Shown: positions 24,263-37,819, numbered from the stretch's first letter. The stretch: 64,000 bases of DNA from an uncultured delta proteobacterium (GCA_963769935.1 CAVYNY010000010.1:640001-704000), one strand, 5' to 3'. Numbers and translations: made by a program. The notes: generated by a model from the letters alone, not told the origin.

Positions 24263-24637
24263 ATGGCGTTAAAAATTAAATCAAACACAAGAGGGCCGGG
24301 AATTTTCGTCGTGTCCCCCATCGGCTCCATTGATGCGAGTACGTTTGACCTTTTTGACGAGAAGATGGATGATATCCTGGGGCAAAAACCGGATGTCATC
24401 ATTTTCGACATGGAGTTTGCCGATTACATCAGCAGCTCAGGCATCCGTGTGCTTTTAAAAACCAAAAAGGCCCTCAAACAAACAGATGGCCGGATGGTTT
24501 TCATGAAACTTCAGCCTCAGATCCAAAAAGTCTTTGATATCCTCAGGGCCATCCCGACGCTTAAAGTTTTTGCCAGCATCGAGGAATTGGACAATTATCT
24601 GGACAAAATGCAGAAAGCTGTCAAGCAGCATAATTGA
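24263..24637 (+). CDS. STAS domain protein (anti-sigma factor antagonist)
   Basis: G.ID, YISSSGIRVLL (phospho-Ser motif), LQPQIQKVFDI. Confidence 0.9.
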   Translation: MALKIKSNTRGPGIFVVSPIGSIDASTFDLFDEKMDDILGQKPDVIIFDMEFADYISSSGIRVLLKTKKALKQTDGRMVFMKLQPQIQKVFDILRAIPTLKVFASIEELDNYLDKMQKAVKQHN

Positions 24638-26742: not shown

Positions 26743-27744
26743 TTAAAGCGCTGCCATTCTATCAATCAAATCCACCACGCGATTCGAATAGCCCCACTCG
26801 TTGTCGTACCATGAGACAATCCTGACAAAGCCGTCCTGCAGGGATATGGTGGACAGCGCATCAAAAATACTGGAATGAGGATTGCCGATGATGTCGCTTG
26901 AGACCAGTGGTGCCTCACTGTATTCGACGACCTTTCGCATCGGACCTTCGGCAGCTTCCCGCACCGCCGCATTTACTTCTTCGACGGATGGCTTGCTCCC
27001 CAGGCGGGCCACCAGGTCCACGATGGAACCGTCCGGCACCGGAACGCGCATGGCCAGTCCGTCCAATTTGCCCTTCAATTGCGGCAGCACCTTGCCGACC
27101 GCCCGGGCCGCACCGGTGGTCGTGGGGATAATATTCTCACCTGCAGCGCGGCTGCGCCGGAAATCTTTGTGGGGGACATCGGCCAGACGCTGGTCGTTGG
27201 TATAGGCGTGGACCGTGGTGATGAACCCTTCCTCGATGCCGAAAGATTCGTCCAGAATTTTGGCAATCGGTGCCAGGCAGTTCGTGGTGCAGGACGCATT
27301 GGAAACGATGCGGTGTTCCGGCTTGAGCTGATCGTCGTTGACGCCAAGTACGATGGTGGCATCGATTTCATCTTTGGCAGGTACCGTGAGAATCACTTTG
27401 CCGGCGCCGGCCGCTAAATGCTTTTCCAGAGCCTTTCTTTCGCGAAACACGCCGGTTGATTCGATGACAAAGTCAACCCCTAAATCCTTCCAGGGTGTTT
27501 CAGCCGGGTCCCGCTCGTCGGTCATGACAACTTTTCGATCGTCCACATACATGGCATCGGCAGTGGCCCGCACCTCCTTTGGAAAGATACCCATCACCGT
27601 ATCGTATTTCAGCAGGTAGGCGAGTTGCTCGTTATCAAACAGGTCGTTGATGCATACGACGTTCACATCACCGCGATCACTTAAAATGCGAAAGACGCTG
27701 CGGCCGATGCGGCCGAAGCCGTTTATTCCGATGTTTATAGCCAT
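26743..27744 (-). CDS. gap: Glyceraldehyde-3-phosphate dehydrogenase, type I (canonical)
   Basis: INGFGRIGR, ESTG, SNASCTTNC, HAYTNDQ, IIPTTTGAA, MRVP, WYDNEWGYS. Confidence 0.97.
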   Translation of the reverse strand: MAINIGINGFGRIGRSVFRILSDRGDVNVVCINDLFDNEQLAYLLKYDTVMGIFPKEVRATADAMYVDDRKVVMTDERDPAETPWKDLGVDFVIESTGVFRERKALEKHLAAGAGKVILTVPAKDEIDATIVLGVNDDQLKPEHRIVSNASCTTNCLAPIAKILDESFGIEEGFITTVHAYTNDQRLADVPHKDFRRSRAAGENIIPTTTGAARAVGKVLPQLKGKLDGLAMRVPVPDGSIVDLVARLGSKPSVEEVNAAVREAAEGPMRKVVEYSEAPLVSSDIIGNPHSSIFDALSTISLQDGFVRIVSWYDNEWGYSNRVVDLIDRMAAL

Positions 27745-28766
27745 TATGCCGCCTCCTTTTCAAATTCAGCGAAAGTATTGATGAGGTCTACCACCCGGTG
27801 GGCATAGCCCCAGCCATTGTCGTACCAGGAAAGAGTTTTGGAGACGCGCTCGCCCATCACCATGGTGGCCAGGGAATCGAAGGTAGTCGAGTAGGGGCTG
27901 CGAATGATGTCGCTGGAAACAATGGGGTCGTCCTCATACTCGATGATATCGTGCCATTTATCGGTTGAGGCGGCTGTTCGCACCACCTCGTTGATTGCGG
28001 TTACGGTTACCGGTTTTTCATGCCAGCAGACCAGATCCACCACCGAACCGTTGGGAACGGGAACATTCATAGACCCGCCGCTGAGGCGTCCTTGCATCGC
28101 GGGTATCAGACTGGAAACCATCAGAGCGGCATCGGTTGTCTGGGGAATGATGTTTTCGGCAGCCGCGCGGCCGCGGCGCTTATCTTCGGAGGGAACATCC
28201 GCCAGGCGCTGCTGGTTGGTATAGGCATGCACGGTACTCAAAAACGCCCGTTGGATCCCGAAGGCTTCGTGCAGGATCTTGACGATCGGCGCCGCACAGT
28301 GGGCCGTGCACGAACCGTTGGAGACAATGCGGTGCTGCGGTGTCAGCTGATCGTCGTTGACGCCCATCACCACCGTGATATCCGGCGGATCCTGGGCCGG
28401 AGCGCACAGAATTACCCGTTTGGCGCCGCGTTCGAGATGCCGTTCAAGCTGCCGGCGCGACCATTTGCGGGCGGTAGCCTCGATAACCACATCGACCCCA
28501 AGGTCTCCCCAGGGCACGTCACCGGGTTCTTTTTCCGAAAGCATCGGAATCTGGCGTCCGGCCACGTAGAGATGTTCTTCCTTGACGCTGACTTCATCCG
28601 GAAAGGGTCCCAAAATCGTGTCGAAACGCAGCAGATACTCAAGTGCCTTGTGATCGGCAATATCGCTGATCGCCCGCAACCGGATAGCCTGGCTCTGGTA
28701 GAGAATGCGGAAGAGGTTTCTGCCGATCCTGCCAAACCCCATTAAGCCTATACCTATGGTTGACAT
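27744..28766 (-). CDS. Divergent GAPDH paralog
   Basis: MGFGRIGR, SNGSCTAHC, HAYTNQQ, IIPQTTDAA, MNVP, WYDNGWGYA; stop overlaps the gap start (TAATG); AGGAGG RBS. Confidence 0.9.
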   Translation of the reverse strand: MSTIGIGLMGFGRIGRNLFRILYQSQAIRLRAISDIADHKALEYLLRFDTILGPFPDEVSVKEEHLYVAGRQIPMLSEKEPGDVPWGDLGVDVVIEATARKWSRRQLERHLERGAKRVILCAPAQDPPDITVVMGVNDDQLTPQHRIVSNGSCTAHCAAPIVKILHEAFGIQRAFLSTVHAYTNQQRLADVPSEDKRRGRAAAENIIPQTTDAALMVSSLIPAMQGRLSGGSMNVPVPNGSVVDLVCWHEKPVTVTAINEVVRTAASTDKWHDIIEYEDDPIVSSDIIRSPYSTTFDSLATMVMGERVSKTLSWYDNGWGYAHRVVDLINTFAEFEKEAA

Positions 28767-30769: not shown

Positions 30770-30990
30770 TTCGTATTTATCGTATTTATTGTTTGGATCG
30801 TTGAGAACGTTATGTCCGTTTTGATCGTAAGAACGTTTAGCCTTATTTCCTCTCTGACACCTGAGACCGCGAGTCTTTTCACTGGCATATGCTGTCAGCT
30901 CTCTGCGCTTTGCCCTCTGCGCTTTGCCAAGTCCAATCCGCAACCCGCATATTTCCAGCTTCGCCATTCCGCATTCAGAATTCAATTCAC
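30770..30990. repeat. Mosaic of 7-9-mer repeats inside the mla operon
   Basis: GATCGTT-type nonamers, TCTGCGC/TTTGCCC heptamers and CCGCAAC/CCGCATT heptamers between mlaD and mlaC. Confidence 0.7.
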
Positions 30991-31478
30991 TCTTTCTTTT
31001 CTTCCTTGCCGGTTTCCTGCTTGCCGCCGCCGCCGACATCGCCGAAGGCATACTTGCTGACCAGATCCATGATATCGGTGGGGGCGTTGGTATCGGTGAT
31101 GGAATCGCCGTCGGCCAGCAGATCCCCGCCGCCGCCCGGATCGATCGAAACGTATTTATCCCCGATCAGACCCTCGGTCTTAATCGAAGCGATGGCATCG
31201 TCATAGACCTCGATGCCCTTGTTGATTCTAAACTGCACCTTGACCACCTGCTTCTCCTGATCCATGTTAAAACTCTCTACCCGTCCGATTTCCAGCCCCA
31301 GCATGTCCACCGGGTTTCCCACCCGCAGCCCGGTCACTGTGGTAAAATCGCCATACAGCGAGTAAGTGTTGTCACCGAAAAACCCCACGTTGCCCAGTTT
31401 AACGGTCATATAGCCGATACACGCCAGCCCGATCACTACAAAAATACCCACTACGGTCTCTTTGGAATATTTTTTCAT
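30987..31478 (-). CDS. mlaD: MlaD (MCE domain) protein
   Basis: E..VG.FV..G anchor, F..V.GL.VG.PV...G..IG.V, ASIKT.GLIGDKYV.I.PGG. Confidence 0.95.
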   Translation of the reverse strand: MKKYSKETVVGIFVVIGLACIGYMTVKLGNVGFFGDNTYSLYGDFTTVTGLRVGNPVDMLGLEIGRVESFNMDQEKQVVKVQFRINKGIEVYDDAIASIKTEGLIGDKYVSIDPGGGGDLLADGDSITDTNAPTDIMDLVSKYAFGDVGGGGKQETGKEEKKE

Positions 31479-32737
31479 TCTGATTTTCCTCCGGGTGTAC
31501 ACTTGAATTTGGCAATTTCTTTCTGATTAAACCGTGCAAATTCCATCACGGACTCGATCTCAATCTGCGGTTTACCCTGCGCCAGTCCGGCAAGGACTGA
31601 GAATTCGGTACATTCTTTATCCGAACCCGCCTCCCCGCGCTGCAGCTCGATGCCGCGGATTCCATGCTCCTGAAAATCCCTGGTAAAGTCCTCCATGATG
31701 CGATTGGCTTCCTCGAGATCCGAATAGGGCAGCACGGTGGCATATTCGTTTATTGTCTGACGGGAGGAAAACCCCCCCACCGCGCCAAAATGCTTGTTGA
31801 TATAGGAGCCTAAAGACCGAATGATCTGCTGGGTCGCATCGTGCCCTAAATGCTCGCTGATGGCATCGATATTATCCAGCGTGAAGACGGCCGCCGCATA
31901 GGTGGCATCCTCCTGCCGCTGGCTCAAATCGGTTTGATAGCGAACTTTGAAATGCCGCTTGGAATACAGCCCGGTCAGCTCTTGGCCCAGGCTCTCCAGG
32001 CTGCTGATCAGCTCCTGGCGGAAGGGATGGTCCAGCGATTCAAACGCTTCCGGGTCCCCCTGAAATACGATTTTACGGTCATACAGAGCCAGAATCCGAT
32101 TGGAAATAAAGTAAACATCCGGAATTTCGTGGCTGATTAAAAGGGCCGTAAACCCGAACCGCTTCTGGTATTCAGCCACCATCCCCAGAATGGCATTTTT
32201 ACGGATCGGATCCTGGCCGGTGGTGGGCTCGTCAAACAGCACAATACTCGGGTTGGTGACCAGCGCACGCGCTAAAGCCGCCCGCTTCTGCATGCCGCCG
32301 GAGATCTCCGAGGGGTACTTGTCGGCCACCTCGGTCAGCTCGGTCTGATCGATGCGCGCCATGGCCTTTTCCTCGATTTCCTTTTTCTTTAATTTGGTCG
32401 TGTACTTCAGCGGCATGGCCACGTTTTCAAAGACCGTCATCGAATCAAACAGGGCATTGCTTTGAAACATGTAGCTGATCTGACCGATGTAATCGTTCCA
32501 TTCCTTCTTGCTCATCTGATCGATGGGTTTGCCCCGGTACAGAATCTGTCCCTCATCGGGTTTGAGCATCCCGATGATGTGTTTAAGCGTCACGCTCTTG
32601 CCCGTGCCGGAAAGACCGATCAGCGTCGTCACCTCACCTTCGTAGATTGAAAAATCGATGCGGTTTAAAATATTGCGCGTGCCGAAAGTTTTGCTGACCC
32701 CTTTAAACTCGATGATTGGTTCTCTTTGGGTGTCCAT
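31475..32737 (-). CDS. mlaF: MlaF ABC ATPase fused to a C-terminal degenerate GGDEF-like domain
   Basis: Walker A GLSGTGKS, ISGGMQKR, FDEPTTG.DP, SH; after residue ~250: ELTGLYSKR, LDNIDAISEHLGH, SRQTINEYA. Confidence 0.9.
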   Translation of the reverse strand: MDTQREPIIEFKGVSKTFGTRNILNRIDFSIYEGEVTTLIGLSGTGKSVTLKHIIGMLKPDEGQILYRGKPIDQMSKKEWNDYIGQISYMFQSNALFDSMTVFENVAMPLKYTTKLKKKEIEEKAMARIDQTELTEVADKYPSEISGGMQKRAALARALVTNPSIVLFDEPTTGQDPIRKNAILGMVAEYQKRFGFTALLISHEIPDVYFISNRILALYDRKIVFQGDPEAFESLDHPFRQELISSLESLGQELTGLYSKRHFKVRYQTDLSQRQEDATYAAAVFTLDNIDAISEHLGHDATQQIIRSLGSYINKHFGAVGGFSSRQTINEYATVLPYSDLEEANRIMEDFTRDFQEHGIRGIELQRGEAGSDKECTEFSVLAGLAQGKPQIEIESVMEFARFNQKEIAKFKCTPGGKSE

Positions 32738-32774: not shown

Positions 32775-33623
32775 TTAGACTATGAAGGAGGTAACCACGT
32801 AATCTGAAATCAGGATCATCACGCACGAAATCACCACCGCCGAGGTGGTCGACAGGCTGACACTCTTGGCGCCGTAGCTGTCGGTGCGCATGTGGGTGAA
32901 ATATCCCTGAAAACAGCAGATGGTCACCACCAGCAGGCCGAAGACGATGGACTTGGTAAAGCCCCCCGTAATGTCTTTTAACTCGGTGCTGGACATGACC
33001 CGGTAATAGTAGGTGCCCGAATTGACCCCCAGCAGCAGACAGCCGCTGACCCAGGCCCCGATAATCCCGATCAGGTCGAAAAACGCGGTTAAAATCGGAA
33101 AACTGATGACCGCCGCCGCAATCCGCGGGCTGATCAAATACCCCAGCGGATCGATGCGCATCGTGGAAAGCGCGTCGATCTGCTCGCTGATGCGCTGGAT
33201 GCCGATCTCCGCGGTCATCGCCGAGCCCGCCCGGGCCGTGATCATGATAGCCGCCAGCACCGGTCCCATCTCACGGATCAGCGTCAGCGCAATGGCGGTG
33301 CCCAGCACCCCCACCGAACCAAATTTGACCAGCACGAAATACAGCTGCAGCCCCAGCACCATGCCGGTGAAAAAGCCCACCAGCATCACGATCTGCGCCG
33401 ACTTGGCCCCGATAAAGTACACCTGCTGAATGATGTCCGGTATGGCCTTGACCCGGAAAATCATGAAAAAGGACCGAAAGAAAAATATGGCCATCGCCCC
33501 CAGATCGTTGTTCAACCGGAATGTCTTGAACCCGAAAAAATCGAAAAACGATATCAGCAGTCCCTTTTTGGGACTCGGGGCTGCGCCTCCAGCGGTATCT
33601 TCAACCGTTGCATTGTCTGCCAT
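32775..33623 (-). CDS. mlaE: MlaE ABC permease
   Basis: G.FTGMVLGLQ, REMGPVL.A....RAGSA.TAEIG....EQIDAL, TT.AVV. Confidence 0.95.
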   Translation of the reverse strand: MADNATVEDTAGGAAPSPKKGLLISFFDFFGFKTFRLNNDLGAMAIFFFRSFFMIFRVKAIPDIIQQVYFIGAKSAQIVMLVGFFTGMVLGLQLYFVLVKFGSVGVLGTAIALTLIREMGPVLAAIMITARAGSAMTAEIGIQRISEQIDALSTMRIDPLGYLISPRIAAAVISFPILTAFFDLIGIIGAWVSGCLLLGVNSGTYYYRVMSSTELKDITGGFTKSIVFGLLVVTICCFQGYFTHMRTDSYGAKSVSLSTTSAVVISCVMILISDYVVTSFIV

Positions 33624-34006: not shown

Positions 34007-36109
34007 ATGTCTAAAAACCTATACATTGCAACCATGGAACCGAGAGGCGGCAAATCGGTAGTGGCACTCGGCATCATGGAATTGCTGTCGCGGCGTTTGA
34101 CTAAGATCGGATTCTTTCGTCCGGTTATTCCCGATGTTGAGCGGGACAATAACATTCAACTGATTCTGAGCAGGTATAATTTAAAATTACCATATGAAAA
34201 GATGTACGCCTACCATCACGAGGATGCTCAGCATATGGTAGCCGTCGGGCAGTACGATGCGCTTTTAAAGAATATTCTAAGCAAGTATAAGGCGCTGGAG
34301 AGTCAATGTGATTTCGTTTTATGCGAAGGCACGGATTACACCGGAGTTTCCTCGGCCTTCGAATTCGACTTCAATGCCGACGTCGCCAATAATCTGGGGT
34401 GCCCGATTCTCACGGTGCTCAACGGACGCGGAAAATCACCGCCGGAAATCATGGAGGGGATACGGTTTGCCCGTGAATCTTTTGACAGCTGCGGATGCAC
34501 GATCCTGGCGACGATCGTCAATCGCATAGCGCCGCAAAGCCTGGAGGCCATCAATGCGCATCTTGCGCAAGAAGCAGTTGCCGGGGTACCGGTATATATT
34601 CTGCCTGAAGCGCCTTTGCTCGGCAGGCCATCGGTCGGCGAAATCGCAACTGCCCTTGACGGCCGGCTTCTCCAGGGTGATCTCCATCGCATGCACCGCG
34701 AGGTCCTGGATATAAAAATAGCCGCTATGACCCTGCCGCATTTTCTGGATTATATCACGGAAGGCACCCTTGTAATTGCGCCGGGCGACCGCTCTGATGT
34801 CATTCTGGGCAGTTTGGCGGCCGCGGCCTCGGAAACCTATCCAAATATCTCCGGCATACTGCTAACCGGAGGCTTGACGCCCGAGCCGCCGGTTCAAAAA
34901 CTAATGGAAGGTTTCAAGAAATCGGCGCCGATACCCATCTTTAGTGTCGGCACCGACACTTACACAACGGCGGTGAATGCCGGTTCGGTGAGAGCCGCTC
35001 TCACCCCTCAAAACCATCGCAAGATTGCTGCCGCTTTGGGAGTCTTCGAATCCCATGTAAACATTCCGGAGCTCGAAGATCGGATCGCGGTGGTTCGTTC
35101 CAAGCGAGTGACCCCGATCATGTTTGAATACGAACTCATCGAACGGGCCAAGGTTCACCGCCGGCACATCGTGCTGCCTGAAGGCTGTGAAGAGAGAATT
35201 CTGCGGGCGGTAGAAATACTTTTGCGGCGCCGGGTGGCAGATATTACCATATTAGGAAATTCGGAGGAAATTAAATATAAAATCAATTCCCTGGGGCTAA
35301 ATTTGGAAGGAGCCCAGATGATTGATCCCCTGCGGTCGGAACAGTTCAACGATTATGCAGACACCTACTACGAGATGCGCAAGCATAAGCGCATATCCCG
35401 TGAAATGGCCCGAGATACCATGACGGATGTCAGCTTTTTCGGAACCATGATGGTTCACAAAGGCGCCGCCGGCGGCATGGTATCGGGAGCCGTCCATACT
35501 ACCAGCGAAACCATCCGCCCGGCCTTTCAGATAATTCGCACCCGGCGCGGAGTTTCCATCGTTTCCAGCGTGTTTCTCATGTGCCTGGCCGACCGGGTTC
35601 TGGTGTACGGCGACTGTGCGGTGAATCCGGATCCGGACGCCGGGCAGCTGGCCGACATTGCCATCAGCTCGGCTGAAACCGCCGAAATGTATGGTATCGA
35701 GCCCCGTATCGCCATGTGCTCATATTCCACCGGACAATCCGCTAAGGGAAAGGATGTCGACAAGGTGCGTGAAGCCACCCGGCTGGTCAGGGAACGTCGT
35801 CCTGATTTGAAAATCGAAGGGCCCATCCAGTATGATGCCGCCGTGGATGCCGGGGTTGCCAAAACCAAATTGCCCGCAAGTGAGGTGGCCGGCCAGGCAA
35901 CGGTATTCATTTTCCCCGATCTTAATACCGGCAATAACCTTTATAAGGCGGTTCAACGATCCGCCAATGCCGTTGCCATCGGGCCGGTCCTGCAGGGTCT
36001 GAACAAACCGGTCAACGACCTGAGCCGCGGATGCACGGTAACCGACATCGTCAACACGGTGGCCATCACGGCGATACAGGCGCAGGCAGTTGTGTCGGAA
36101 GGCAGATGA
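34007..36109 (+). CDS. pta: Phosphate acetyltransferase (long form with AAA/DRTGG N-terminus)
   Basis: GKS, EGTD, PGDRSD, IVLPEG...RIL, SGA.HT, GDCAVNP.P, EGP.QYDAA, FPDLNTGN, QGL.KPVNDLSRG. Confidence 0.97.
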   Translation: MSKNLYIATMEPRGGKSVVALGIMELLSRRLTKIGFFRPVIPDVERDNNIQLILSRYNLKLPYEKMYAYHHEDAQHMVAVGQYDALLKNILSKYKALESQCDFVLCEGTDYTGVSSAFEFDFNADVANNLGCPILTVLNGRGKSPPEIMEGIRFARESFDSCGCTILATIVNRIAPQSLEAINAHLAQEAVAGVPVYILPEAPLLGRPSVGEIATALDGRLLQGDLHRMHREVLDIKIAAMTLPHFLDYITEGTLVIAPGDRSDVILGSLAAAASETYPNISGILLTGGLTPEPPVQKLMEGFKKSAPIPIFSVGTDTYTTAVNAGSVRAALTPQNHRKIAAALGVFESHVNIPELEDRIAVVRSKRVTPIMFEYELIERAKVHRRHIVLPEGCEERILRAVEILLRRRVADITILGNSEEIKYKINSLGLNLEGAQMIDPLRSEQFNDYADTYYEMRKHKRISREMARDTMTDVSFFGTMMVHKGAAGGMVSGAVHTTSETIRPAFQIIRTRRGVSIVSSVFLMCLADRVLVYGDCAVNPDPDAGQLADIAISSAETAEMYGIEPRIAMCSYSTGQSAKGKDVDKVREATRLVRERRPDLKIEGPIQYDAAVDAGVAKTKLPASEVAGQATVFIFPDLNTGNNLYKAVQRSANAVAIGPVLQGLNKPVNDLSRGCTVTDIVNTVAITAIQAQAVVSEGR

Positions 36110-36591
36110 CAGATGATAAACTCCAGGTTTCAGGTGTCGGGTGTCAGGTGTCAGCCCCGCCGCCGGCCAAAACAACGGCCGGTCTGATCATAAAAGAAAC
36201 TTTTGGAAATCGGACACAGTTGGATTTAATATCACGCCCACTTCGTTAGAGCTCACAGAGACCGCAGAGAACATTTTCCTTTCGCCGCAGGCGCCTGTAA
36301 ACCCAGACCTCTGTGATCTCTGAGCGCTCTGTGTGAGATGTAGTTTCATATGAGGTGTCAGCGCTGCCGTTGTCCATCGGGGCAGCCGGTTGGATTGAAT
36401 AAACAACTTGTCGTATGAAATTTAATGAGATCAAACGTCATTTTGGGGCTAGAGTTAATGGCTGGCGGGAGTGGTTATTAACCACGGTTGCAAATGTCGA
36501 TCAGACCGGCATTTGCTTTGGCCGGCGGTGGGGCTGACACCTGAAACCCGAGAACTATAATCTATCATCTGACATCTGTTCTCTGTCATCT
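36103..36591. mobile_element. Composite nested palindromic element (MITE/BIME-like), copy A
   Basis: 45-bp inverted arms at 36145-36189 and 36499-36543 (4 mismatches), outer CAGATGA/TCATCTG arms, inner CTCACAGAG...CTGTGTGAG palindrome. Confidence 0.7.
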
Positions 36592-36610
36592 AACAAATCA
36601 GAGGTACCAC

Positions 36611-37819
36611 ATGAAAACACTGGTCATTAACTCCGGCAGCTCCTCCATCAAATACCGGCTTTTCGACATGCAGGATAAAAGTGTCTTGGCCACCGGTCTG
36701 CTGGAACAAATCGGCGAGGCCGAAAGCCGTTTAACGCATCGGTCCCGCAATGCACAGGGCGAAATGGAAGAAATCGTCCGAACCCGGCCGGTCGAAAATC
36801 ATCAGGCGGGCTTTCAGCTCATCGAAAGCGTTTTGAATGAAACCGGGGCCGTCGGCGATACGCAGGAATTATGCGGCATCGGCCACCGCGTGGTTCACGG
36901 CGGTGAAAAATTTCGCGAGGCCACGATCATAAATTCGGAAGTGATCGAAACCATCCGGCGGCTGATCCCGCTGGCCCCCCTGCACAACCCTCATAACCTT
37001 CTCGGCATCGAAGTTGCTATGGAGGTCGCCCCGCAAGTACCCCAGGTAGCCGTATTCGATACGGCCTTTCATCACAGTATACCGCCCCCGGCCTTTCACT
37101 ATGCGCTCCCACAGGAACTTTATGTAAATCATCATGTGCGCCGCTATGGGTTTCACGGCACATCCCACTTTTATGTCGCCAAACAGGCGGCCCGATATCT
37201 GAACAGATCCCTGGAATCCATGAATCTGATCACCCTTCACCTGGGAAACGGCGCCAGCGTTACGGCAATCAAAAACGGCAAAAGCGTCGACACCTCCATG
37301 GGCATGACACCGCTGGAAGGGCTGATCATGGGAACCCGTTCGGGCGACATCGATCCGGCCATTATTTTTTACCTAGGCCGTCAGGCTGGTTATGCACCGC
37401 AGGAAATTGAATCGATGCTGAACGAGCAAAGCGGCCTGAAAGGGATCTGCGGGGCCAACGACATGCGTGACATCGGCCGGTTGGCCGCAAACGGGGATAA
37501 GGCAGCCGGGCTGGCCATCGAAATGTACTGCTACCGCATTAAAAAATACATCGGTGCCTATAGCGCGGCCCTGGGCCGGATCGAGGCGCTGGTCTTTACC
37601 GGCGGCATTGGAGAAAACGCCGCCGACATCCGGCGGCGCGCATGCGCGGGGCTGGCGCAACTCGGTATCGAGGTGGATCATCCGAAAAACAATGCCGGAA
37701 AAAACGGAATATTTGAGATTCAAAGCGCAAAAAGTTCGGTCGCCATACTCGTTGTACCAACGGATGAAGAACTGGAAATCGCCGAGCAGACGGTCCACTG
37801 TATAAAAGCGTTGTCTTGA
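36611..37819 (+). CDS. ackA: Acetate kinase
   Basis: LVINSGSSSIKY, GHRVVHGG, APLHNP, FDTAFH, RRYGFHGTSH, HLGNGAS, TSMG.TPLEG..MGTRSGD, FTGGIGEN, TDEE. Confidence 0.98.
   Translation: MKTLVINSGSSSIKYRLFDMQDKSVLATGLLEQIGEAESRLTHRSRNAQGEMEEIVRTRPVENHQAGFQLIESVLNETGAVGDTQELCGIGHRVVHGGEKFREATIINSEVIETIRRLIPLAPLHNPHNLLGIEVAMEVAPQVPQVAVFDTAFHHSIPPPAFHYALPQELYVNHHVRRYGFHGTSHFYVAKQAARYLNRSLESMNLITLHLGNGASVTAIKNGKSVDTSMGMTPLEGLIMGTRSGDIDPAIIFYLGRQAGYAPQEIESMLNEQSGLKGICGANDMRDIGRLAANGDKAAGLAIEMYCYRIKKYIGAYSAALGRIEALVFTGGIGENAADIRRRACAGLAQLGIEVDHPKNNAGKNGIFEIQSAKSSVAILVVPTDEELEIAEQTVHCIKALS

What the first reader, a model, noticed from the sequence alone, without database searches (positions are those of the whole stretch)
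31475..32000. MlaF ATPase carries a degenerate GGDEF-like domain; the operon has no mlaB
Seen: about 170 extra C-terminal residues. ELTGLYSKR matches D.LTGL.NRR, FTLDNIDAISEHLGHDATQQII matches D.D.FK.IND.yGH..GD..L, and SRQTINEYATVLP replaces R.GGDEF..LLP. The operon is mlaE-F-D-C-A with no STAS-type mlaB. Established: degenerate GGDEF domains lack cyclase activity but can bind nucleotides or proteins, and MlaB regulates MlaF in E. coli. Inference: a built-in regulatory domain replaces MlaB and may couple phospholipid trafficking to GTP or c-di-GMP status.
Basis: partly seen in the sequence, partly recalled or inferred. Interest (0 to 1): 0.7.

Follow-up and report, generated by a model that had tools for sequence, protein, structure and literature searches.

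The report
Lipid-pump ATPase with dead cyclase domain
The motor ATPase of this bacterium's outer-membrane lipid transporter (Mla) ends in a conserved, catalytically dead copy of a c-di-GMP-synthase domain that likely clamps or tunes the ATPase pair; this copy lacks the known nucleotide-binding sites and shows no sign of replacing the helper protein MlaB, while a sister subfamily often keeps a predicted c-di-GMP site.

Summary
Observation confirmed. 31475-32737(-) encodes a 420-aa MlaF: an intact ABC domain plus a GGDEF-fold tail (Pfam above cut-off; model Z 15.6 to PleD), in a tight mlaE-F-D-C-A operon without mlaB. The fusion occurs in about a third of sampled genomes of this class, is under purifying selection and probably arose once.

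Unfused relatives also lack mlaB (no stand-alone STAS gene in 60 unfused or 20 fused loci), so replacement of MlaB is unsupported. This protein has lost the GTP site and the RxxD c-di-GMP site.

Best reading: an accessory clamp or regulatory module where E. coli MlaF has its dimerising tail (0.5).

This scan reported the fusion before on other genomes. Not in the earlier notes I saw:
- A sister subfamily keeps RxxD in 39 of 61 members (window subfamily 0 of 260).
- A co-varying cysteine pair absent from true cyclases.
- A conserved stand-alone paralogue clade with DEP changed to DEL; this genome has four fused copies.

New variant; interest 0.5.

The parts
32775..33623 (-). mlaE, permease, 282 aa; no STAS domain detected at its N-terminus
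   Evidence: Pfam PF02405 235 bits, residues 64-279, only family at E<=1; TIGR00056 over cut-off
31475..32737 (-). mlaF fusion, 420 aa: ABC ATPase plus degenerate GGDEF domain
   Evidence: best NCBIfam hit PRK11831 MlaF, 190 bits, below its 441 cut-off; best fold match E. coli MlaF 6xgy
32003..32737 (-). ABC nucleotide-binding domain, residues 1-245; Walker A, Q-loop, signature, Walker B, D-loop and H-switch intact
   Evidence: 37% identical to E. coli MlaF over 231 residues
31499..31990 (-). degenerate GGDEF domain, residues 250-413, starting where the E. coli C-terminal extension starts (residue 247 there)
   Evidence: PMC7367683 section 8
31742..31762 (-). remnant active site: near-invariant R326, then Q, then TINEY in place of GG[DE]EF
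31772..31783 (-). position of the RxxD inhibitory site, here AVGG (residues 319-322); no c-di-GMP site
   Evidence: aligned with three intact GGDEF domains of the same genome
31610..31612 (-). C376, first of a co-varying cysteine pair
31499..31501 (-). C413, second cysteine of the pair
30987..31478 (-). mlaD, MCE protein, 163 aa; its start overlaps the mlaF stop (ATGA)
   Evidence: Pfam PF02470 73 bits
30152..30751 (-). mlaC, periplasmic shuttle, 199 aa
   Evidence: Pfam PF05494 160 bits
29227..30141 (-). mlaA (VacJ) lipoprotein; start codon uncertain
   Evidence: Pfam PF04333 220 bits

Best explanation
The gene encodes the ATPase of an MlaEFD-C-A envelope-lipid transporter whose C-terminus is a catalytically dead GGDEF domain that likely works as a nucleotide-blind clamp and regulatory module on the ATPase dimer, at the place where E. 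coli MlaF has its dimerising tail. Shown: fold, position, loss of the GTP and c-di-GMP sites in this protein, purifying selection, absence of mlaB in fused and unfused relatives, and dispensability in some lineages. Inferred: two such domains meet under the ATPase pair, as the C-terminal domains of MetN and ModC do, hold MlaF on MlaE and set how freely the ATPase domains open and close. The fusion probably began as a cyclase domain with an RxxD site, which the branch holding this protein later lost.
For: [quoted passage not shown] That extension's job is dimerisation, and a fused GCN4 dimer replaced it (PMC7367683 section 8). Conservation is of fold residues, not ligand residues: in 165 non-redundant members R326 161, G384 160, A401 154, G256 152, P337 152, against GG 0, metal Asp 2, K332-equivalent 3, D344-equivalent 4. 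E331-R402, the remnants of E371 and K442, rank 6th in covariation and are charge-swapped in type B (K/R 55 of 61; E next to the conserved Ala in 75%), which fits an internal salt bridge rather than phosphate binding. Domain dN/dS is 0.12-0.13 against three same-genus copies (ATPase part 0.04-0.05). Precedent: MetN and ModC C-terminal domains dimerise across the ATPase pair (PMC10710835), and MetN aligns over about 360 columns of the full model, though at rmsd 6.5-10. Two of seven degenerate E. coli GGDEF domains homodimerise alone (PMC5635695).
Against: No direct evidence of a dimer was obtained. Relatives that lost the domain, and outgroups that never had it, end within about 10-25 residues of the last helix, so a clamp is not required in this clade. 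Only 2 of 7 degenerate E. coli domains self-dimerise. The full-length model has pTM 0.62 against 0.83 for the domain alone, so the domain's position on the ATPase is unresolved. Degenerate GGDEF domains can bind nucleotides in unexpected ways (YybT, CC3396; PMC7288161).
Confidence: 0.5

Rival explanations
1. The domain is a docking site for a partner (a cyclase, a cyclic-nucleotide-binding protein or a paralogous ATPase) that brings the signal to the transporter.
For: A subtype has a small cNMP-binding gene directly upstream in 4 GTDB genomes (G376, G534, G642, G736) and 8 of 12 metagenome loci, two of them identical to G376. Some operons hold two fused ATPases with one mlaE (L163, L210, L212, L213). 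Stand-alone paralogues form a conserved clade. The former RxxD loop became a conserved Gly-rich hydrophobic loop in type A. Degenerate GGDEF domains form heteromers in E. coli. The genome has 10 ORFs with intact-looking GGDEF motifs.
Against: None of the four copies in this genome lies near a cNMP gene (30 matches listed for two genomes). The cNMP subtype is one narrow clade, so its members are not independent. No conserved partner gene was seen among 129 short flanking ORFs.
Confidence: 0.2
2. The domain carries a thiol switch or metal site: C376 and C413 form a disulfide or bind a metal and so link transport to redox or metal status.
For: C376-C413 ranks 12th of 14028 pairs by mean-field coupling (443 rows, effective 155); both present in 97 of 165, neither in 25; 48 and 50 of 55 in a third subfamily, absent from the three true cyclases aligned. 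L382-Q405 coupling fits antiparallel strands that would bring them together.
Against: Independent-pair test is only suggestive: 5.2 pairs same way, 0.1 opposite, median p 0.06. 43 of 165 members keep only one cysteine. The protein is predicted cytoplasmic in anaerobes. The pair may simply be buried small residues. No model coordinates were available to measure the distance.
Confidence: 0.12
3. The domain replaces MlaB, stabilising MlaF by covering the MlaB site.
For: No mlaB in the operon or over cut-off in the genome. MlaB's essential role is MlaF stability (PMC7367683), which a fused domain could supply.
Against: No anticorrelation: 60 unfused loci also have no stand-alone STAS gene (E. coli MlaB control found at E 1.9e-8); one distant unfused locus has a weak STAS-like region on MlaE (L107). 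Lineages that lost the domain did not gain mlaB. One fused operon has a STAS gene right after mlaC, typed as anti-sigma antagonist (L219). MlaB binds the helical subdomain, not the C-terminus.
Confidence: 0.1
4. This protein's domain senses GTP or c-di-GMP directly.
For: Type B relatives keep RxxD (39 of 61) and R/K at the R390 position (31 of 61 all three), close to true cyclases of this genome (7 of 10). Dead GGDEF domains with an intact I-site are receptors (PopA, SgmT; PMC3509222).
Against: The window protein has AVGG and D350 at these places, and type A has RxxD in 0 of 260 rows. All guanine- and metal-binding side chains are replaced. Even in type B the Arg is lost repeatedly (13 changes on the tree, at least 4 forced by strong branches), and the genome's own type B copy lacks it.
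Confidence: 0.07
5. The domain is a functionless relic.
For: Lost cleanly at least twice; identity between subfamilies falls to about 25%.
Against: dN/dS 0.06-0.34 in pairs whose ATPase dN is 0.13 or less; full length kept in hundreds of genomes. Deep pairs give ratios up to 1.5 but are saturated and uninformative.
Confidence: 0.03

Closest known systems
E. coli MlaF in MlaFEDB, with its C-terminal 'handshake' extension and MlaB (PMC7367683; PDB 6xgy, 6xbd)
   Same: Best fold match of the ATPase part (E 4e-28, 36% identity); same partners MlaE, D, C, A; appendage starts at the same position
   Different: A 165-residue GGDEF-fold domain instead of a 23-residue tail; no MlaB; gene order E-F-D-C-A with mlaA inside the operon; below the MlaF equivalog cut-off
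ABC importers with C-terminal regulatory domains: MetN (C2), ModC (PMC10710835)
   Same: ATPase with a folded C-terminal domain; those domains dimerise across the ATPase pair and gate it
   Different: Different domain family; lipid (MCE) transporter; no ligand or dimer shown here
Degenerate-GGDEF c-di-GMP receptors PopA, SgmT, CdgI (PMC3509222, PMC5635695)
   Same: Dead active site; fused to an unrelated output domain; type B relatives keep RxxD
   Different: The window protein lacks RxxD and R390; the output is a transport ATPase
Active diguanylate cyclases (PleD, DgcB, SadC)
   Same: Same fold (Z 15-15.6); N-terminal turn motif and the Arg before the signature are kept
   Different: No catalytic or guanine-binding residues; some database entries of this family are labelled 'diguanylate cyclase' in error
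Desulfovibrio alaskensis G20 operon Dde_2297-2301 (PMC5193443)
   Same: Five-gene mla operon with F, D, C, A homologues in the same order; mutants have fitness defects in SDS and phosphate limitation
   Different: I could not determine whether Dde_2298 carries the domain

Membership tests
MlaF / Mla system | Intact ABC ATPase motifs, closest to MlaF | tested here: met
   (best NCBIfam family is MlaF, though under its equivalog cut-off)
MlaF / Mla system | Encoded with MlaE, MlaD, MlaC, MlaA | tested here: met
   same order in most relatives
MlaF / Mla system | MlaB subunit (E. coli-type complex) | tested here: not met
   MlaEFD without MlaB is the common state (PMC10665443)
MlaF / Mla system | Transports glycerophospholipids | not testable with these tools
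   Inferred from homology; no squalene-hopene cyclase found in the genome (96.7% complete), so hopanoid cargo is unlikely
Active diguanylate cyclase | GGDEF fold | tested here: met
Active diguanylate cyclase | GG[DE]EF, D327, N335, D344 (PleD numbering; PMC7288161) | tested here: not met
   Window: TINEY, T, S, Q; family GG 0 of 165, metal Asp 2, Asn 23, D344 4
Degenerate-GGDEF c-di-GMP receptor (PopA/SgmT type) | Intact RxxD plus R390, window protein and type A | tested here: not met
   AVGG and D350; 0 of 260 type A rows
Degenerate-GGDEF c-di-GMP receptor (PopA/SgmT type) | Intact RxxD plus R390, type B relatives | tested here: inconclusive
   RxxD 39 of 61, with R/K390 31 of 61; Arg lost repeatedly
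Degenerate-GGDEF c-di-GMP receptor (PopA/SgmT type) | Binds c-di-GMP | not testable with these tools
   needs a binding assay
ABC ATPase with C-terminal regulatory domain (MetN/ModC type) | Folded domain C-terminal to the ATPase | tested here: met
ABC ATPase with C-terminal regulatory domain (MetN/ModC type) | The domains dimerise across the ATPase pair | not tested
Functional substitute of MlaB | Present where MlaB is absent and absent where MlaB is present | tested here: not met
   unfused relatives lack MlaB too

The most novel reading that the evidence does not exclude
Deltaproteobacterial Mla transporters are switched through their ATPase tail. The ancestral fusion was a c-di-GMP receptor, still so in type B members with RxxD. 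Descendants rewired the dead domain as a cysteine-pair switch or as a dock for a cNMP-binding protein, and genomes such as this one swap several tail-variant ATPases (including a DEP-to-DEL paralogue) onto one MlaE. This would be direct second-messenger or redox control of outer-membrane lipid traffic.
Probability: 0.22. Interest if true: 0.8.

Novelty: new variant of a known kind. Interest (0 to 1): 0.5.

Why it matters
How Mla activity is regulated after translation is open even in E. coli, and most bacteria have Mla without MlaB. A GGDEF-fold domain on MlaF is a ready handle on that question in sulfate reducers and syntrophs, and a cultured carrier exists (Desulfocurvibacter africanus, Desaf_0216). 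The split between RxxD-bearing and RxxD-less subfamilies gives a natural comparison for whether c-di-GMP can gate a lipid transporter. It also flags a group of proteins mislabelled as diguanylate cyclases. The architecture itself is visible in public domain annotation, so the novelty lies in function, which is still inferred.

Tried and rejected
- Complex prediction of the domain dimer was not available; no result either way.
- My first column count of the RxxD site gave no RxxD because an alignment gap shifted type B rows; searches corrected this.
- The local STAS profile (16 sequences, one in a wrong frame) found E. coli MlaB but missed the weak STAS-like N-terminus of L107 MlaE, so STAS fused to MlaE can escape it. 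Compact operons have MlaE of about 255-285 aa, with no room for one. Flanks of several loci are cut by contig ends.
- Hopanoid transport (MlaC hit HpnM at 97 bits, cut-off 160) was rejected: no hopene cyclase found.
- The nearby STAS gene (24263-24637) was rejected as mlaB: opposite strand, 4.6 kb away, anti-sigma antagonist family.
- Promoter and terminator scans were at chance level (7 against 4.7, 8 against 6.7).
- dN/dS of deep pairs was rejected as saturated.
- A word search for type B relatives found only 4 fusions; they were collected from genomes instead (58 of 60 fetched stretches were fusions, 2 true cyclases).
- The careful tree did not finish; quick IQ-TREE and FastTree trees were used. 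They differ on whether Verrucomicrobia and L053 short forms lie inside the fused clade, so the number of losses is 2 to 4.
- Whether D. alaskensis Dde_2298 is fused could not be settled.
- The Asp-Arg salt bridge between the DxLT turn and the Arg before the signature is recalled, not confirmed by the passages read.
- Literature searches for the fusion showed no describing paper in the listings; most listed papers were not opened, no supplements were read, and subscription journals are not covered.

Full report
1. Observation. The minus strand at 31475-32737 encodes a 420-aa protein. Pfam finds ABC_tran at 24-173 and GGDEF at 253-357 with 34.1 bits against a cut-off of 23.8; the best NCBIfam family is MlaF, 190 bits, below its equivalog cut-off of 441. 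The model of the tail is confident (pLDDT 85.4, pTM 0.83) and matches GGDEF domains by Foldseek, by profile search of solved chains (46 hits, GGDEF proteins) and by VIA-align (Z 15.6, rmsd 2.9, 155 residues to PleD; adenylyl cyclases Z 9.2 or less). The full-length model matches E. coli MlaF best. The neighbours are MlaE, MlaD, MlaC and MlaA, with gaps of 37, -4, 235 and 10 bp.

2. Spread and history. The tail matches 1116 protein clusters, of which I saw the best 120. A profile matched 104 of 251 genomes of the class at E<=1e-16; by my hand count 82 have a near-full-length match, and 58 of 60 weaker matches that I fetched were fusions next to mlaE or mlaD, 2 being true cyclases. A single-protein search hit 25 of 301 phylum genomes, one a true GGDEF protein. 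Named carriers are mostly Thermodesulfobacteriota (13 of 19 fused loci; 3 unassigned) and include the cultured Desulfocurvibacter africanus. On a tree of 95 ATPase domains all 38 fused rows fall in one clade (SH-aLRT 100) with 12 short forms; holding the fused rows together is rejected (AU p 3.35e-5 on 67 rows, 28 dropped for speed or branch length). A 162-row FastTree needs only two losses. One gain and 2 to 4 losses is the simplest reading. Domain dN/dS is 0.12-0.13 against three same-genus copies and 0.10-0.32 in other close pairs; deep pairs are saturated.

3. MlaB. I scanned 80 loci, 20 fused (18 complete, one cut by a contig end, one decayed) and 60 unfused. Pfam found no STAS among 129 short flanking ORFs. 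A local STAS profile found none in six frames of the 80 loci while detecting E. coli MlaB at E 1.9e-8; it missed a weak STAS-like region on the MlaE of one distant unfused locus. The MlaB model passed its cut-off in 0 of 30 genomes, 25 with the fusion and 5 without a match. One fused operon has a STAS gene after mlaC, typed as anti-sigma antagonist. PMC10665443 (passages) reports MlaABC as sparse and mostly proteobacterial. So the absence of mlaB is the background state of this lineage and does not track the domain.

4. What the domain keeps. PleD's GTP site uses E370, D327, N335, D344, K442 and R446, and its inhibitory site R359, D362 and R390 (PMC7288161, passages). The window protein has T, S, Q and TINEY at the active-site positions, AVGG at RxxD and D at R390. 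In 165 non-redundant members GG occurs 0 times, the metal Asp twice and the D344 equivalent 4 times, while R326, G384, A401, G256 and P337 are kept in 152-161. E331 and R402 co-vary (6th rank) and are charge-swapped in type B, which fits an internal salt bridge. Against my first count (mis-registered), the type B subfamily keeps RxxD in 39 of 61 non-redundant members, 31 with R/K at 390, close to the 7 of 10 in intact cyclase motifs of this genome; type A has it in 0 of 260 rows. Type B lies outside the clade of RxxD-less proteins that holds the window protein (support 96-98) and loses the Arg repeatedly. Dead GGDEF domains with an intact site are c-di-GMP receptors (PMC3509222, passages). A cysteine pair, C376-C413, ranks 12th of 14028 couplings and both are present in 97 of 165; it is absent from the cyclases aligned; the phylogenetically independent test is suggestive only (median p 0.06).

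5. Paralogues and partners. This genome has four fused MlaF genes, three without mla neighbours, and one compact mlaE. One orphan belongs to a conserved stand-alone clade whose seven members read DEL for DEP. A separate narrow subtype sits beside a cNMP-binding gene, sometimes with two fused ATPases per operon; this lead came from earlier finding e1-4570659. No cNMP gene lies near any copy here.

6. Mechanism. Shown: fold, position, dead sites, selection, dispensability. Established: the E. coli tail (residues 247-269) holds the ATPase dimer on MlaE and can be replaced by GCN4, while MlaB binds the helical subdomain and mainly stabilises MlaF (PMC7367683; passages and sections 8 and 9); MetN and ModC C-terminal domains dimerise and gate their ATPases (PMC10710835, passages); some degenerate GGDEF domains homo- or heterodimerise (PMC5635695, passages); GGDEF domains start with a DxLT turn joined to the preceding helix (PMC13725321, PMC10396304, passages). 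Inferred: the domain clamps or tunes the ATPase pair without binding a guanine nucleotide in this subfamily (0.5). Rivals: partner dock 0.2, cysteine switch 0.12, MlaB substitute 0.1, direct nucleotide sensor in this protein 0.07, relic 0.03; the first three can coexist.

7. Known and new. It is an Mla-system ATPase by motifs, fold and neighbours; it is not an active cyclase, and this copy is not a PopA/SgmT-type receptor. Five searches listed no paper describing the fusion; I saw listings only for most hits, read no supplements, and subscription journals are missing. The architecture is visible in public annotation, sometimes mislabelled as diguanylate cyclase. PMC5193443 (passages) gives a phenotype for a five-gene mla operon in D. 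alaskensis, whose fusion status I could not check; bioRxiv 10.1101/2025.07.29.667474 (passages) raised hopanoid cargo, which the missing cyclase argues against. This scan noted the same fusion in 13 other windows, 8 of which were shown; my reading was set before I saw them. The retained RxxD site in type B, the cysteine pair and the DEL paralogue clade were not in the short notes shown. Verdict: real, conserved, apparently undescribed variant of a known transporter; the MlaB-replacement and nucleotide-sensing claims do not hold for this copy; interest 0.5.

Noticed in passing
G000:C10:373844-375118(-), C38:4206-5489(+), C13:387616-388851(+): Three more MlaF-GGDEF genes in this genome with intact Walker motifs and no mla gene beside them. 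The genome has only one compact mlaE. Contig composition matches the main genome (r 0.988-1.0).
   Followed up: yes
G000:C10:373844; L223, L228, L224, L225, L158, L192: Stand-alone paralogues form one clade (FastTree 98) across two families; all seven read DEL instead of DEP after Walker B, with dN/dS 0.04-0.18 where measurable. DEL was seen in 8 orphan rows and in no correctly parsed operon row of 139 (13 rows mis-parsed).
   Followed up: partly
L163 3781-4419, L155, L221, L222, L209-L213, L215: A subtype of the fusion has a small cNMP-binding gene directly upstream; some of these operons hold two fused ATPases. Lead taken from earlier finding e1-4570659.
   Followed up: partly
L219 5704-6036(-): A fused operon E-F-D-C followed directly by a 110-aa STAS gene of the anti-sigma antagonist family.
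   Followed up: partly
L290 (G000:C10:545000-552000): A second MCE operon: long MlaE with a faint STAS-like N-terminus (E 0.012), short ATPase, long MlaD, auxiliary lipoprotein, then mlaD and mlaC copies 92% and 94% identical to the window's.
   Followed up: partly
window 24263-24637(+): Anti-sigma factor antagonist (TIGR00377 over cut-off).
   Followed up: yes
window 26743-28766(-): Two GAPDH-family genes in tandem directly downstream of mlaA; the first passes the GAPDH-I cut-off, the second falls just short (357.9 against 367.2).
   Followed up: no
window 34007-37819(+): pta and ackA transcribed divergently from the mla operon; the same pta-mla-GAPDH layout appears in same-genus L227.
   Followed up: no
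L230-L287 (type B fusions): Type B domains carry further conserved cysteines (92% and 90% of 61 rows) beside the pair discussed.
   Followed up: no
L050 5521-6678: An Opitutales MlaF with a decayed, possibly frameshifted GGDEF-like tail, perhaps a loss in progress.
   Followed up: no
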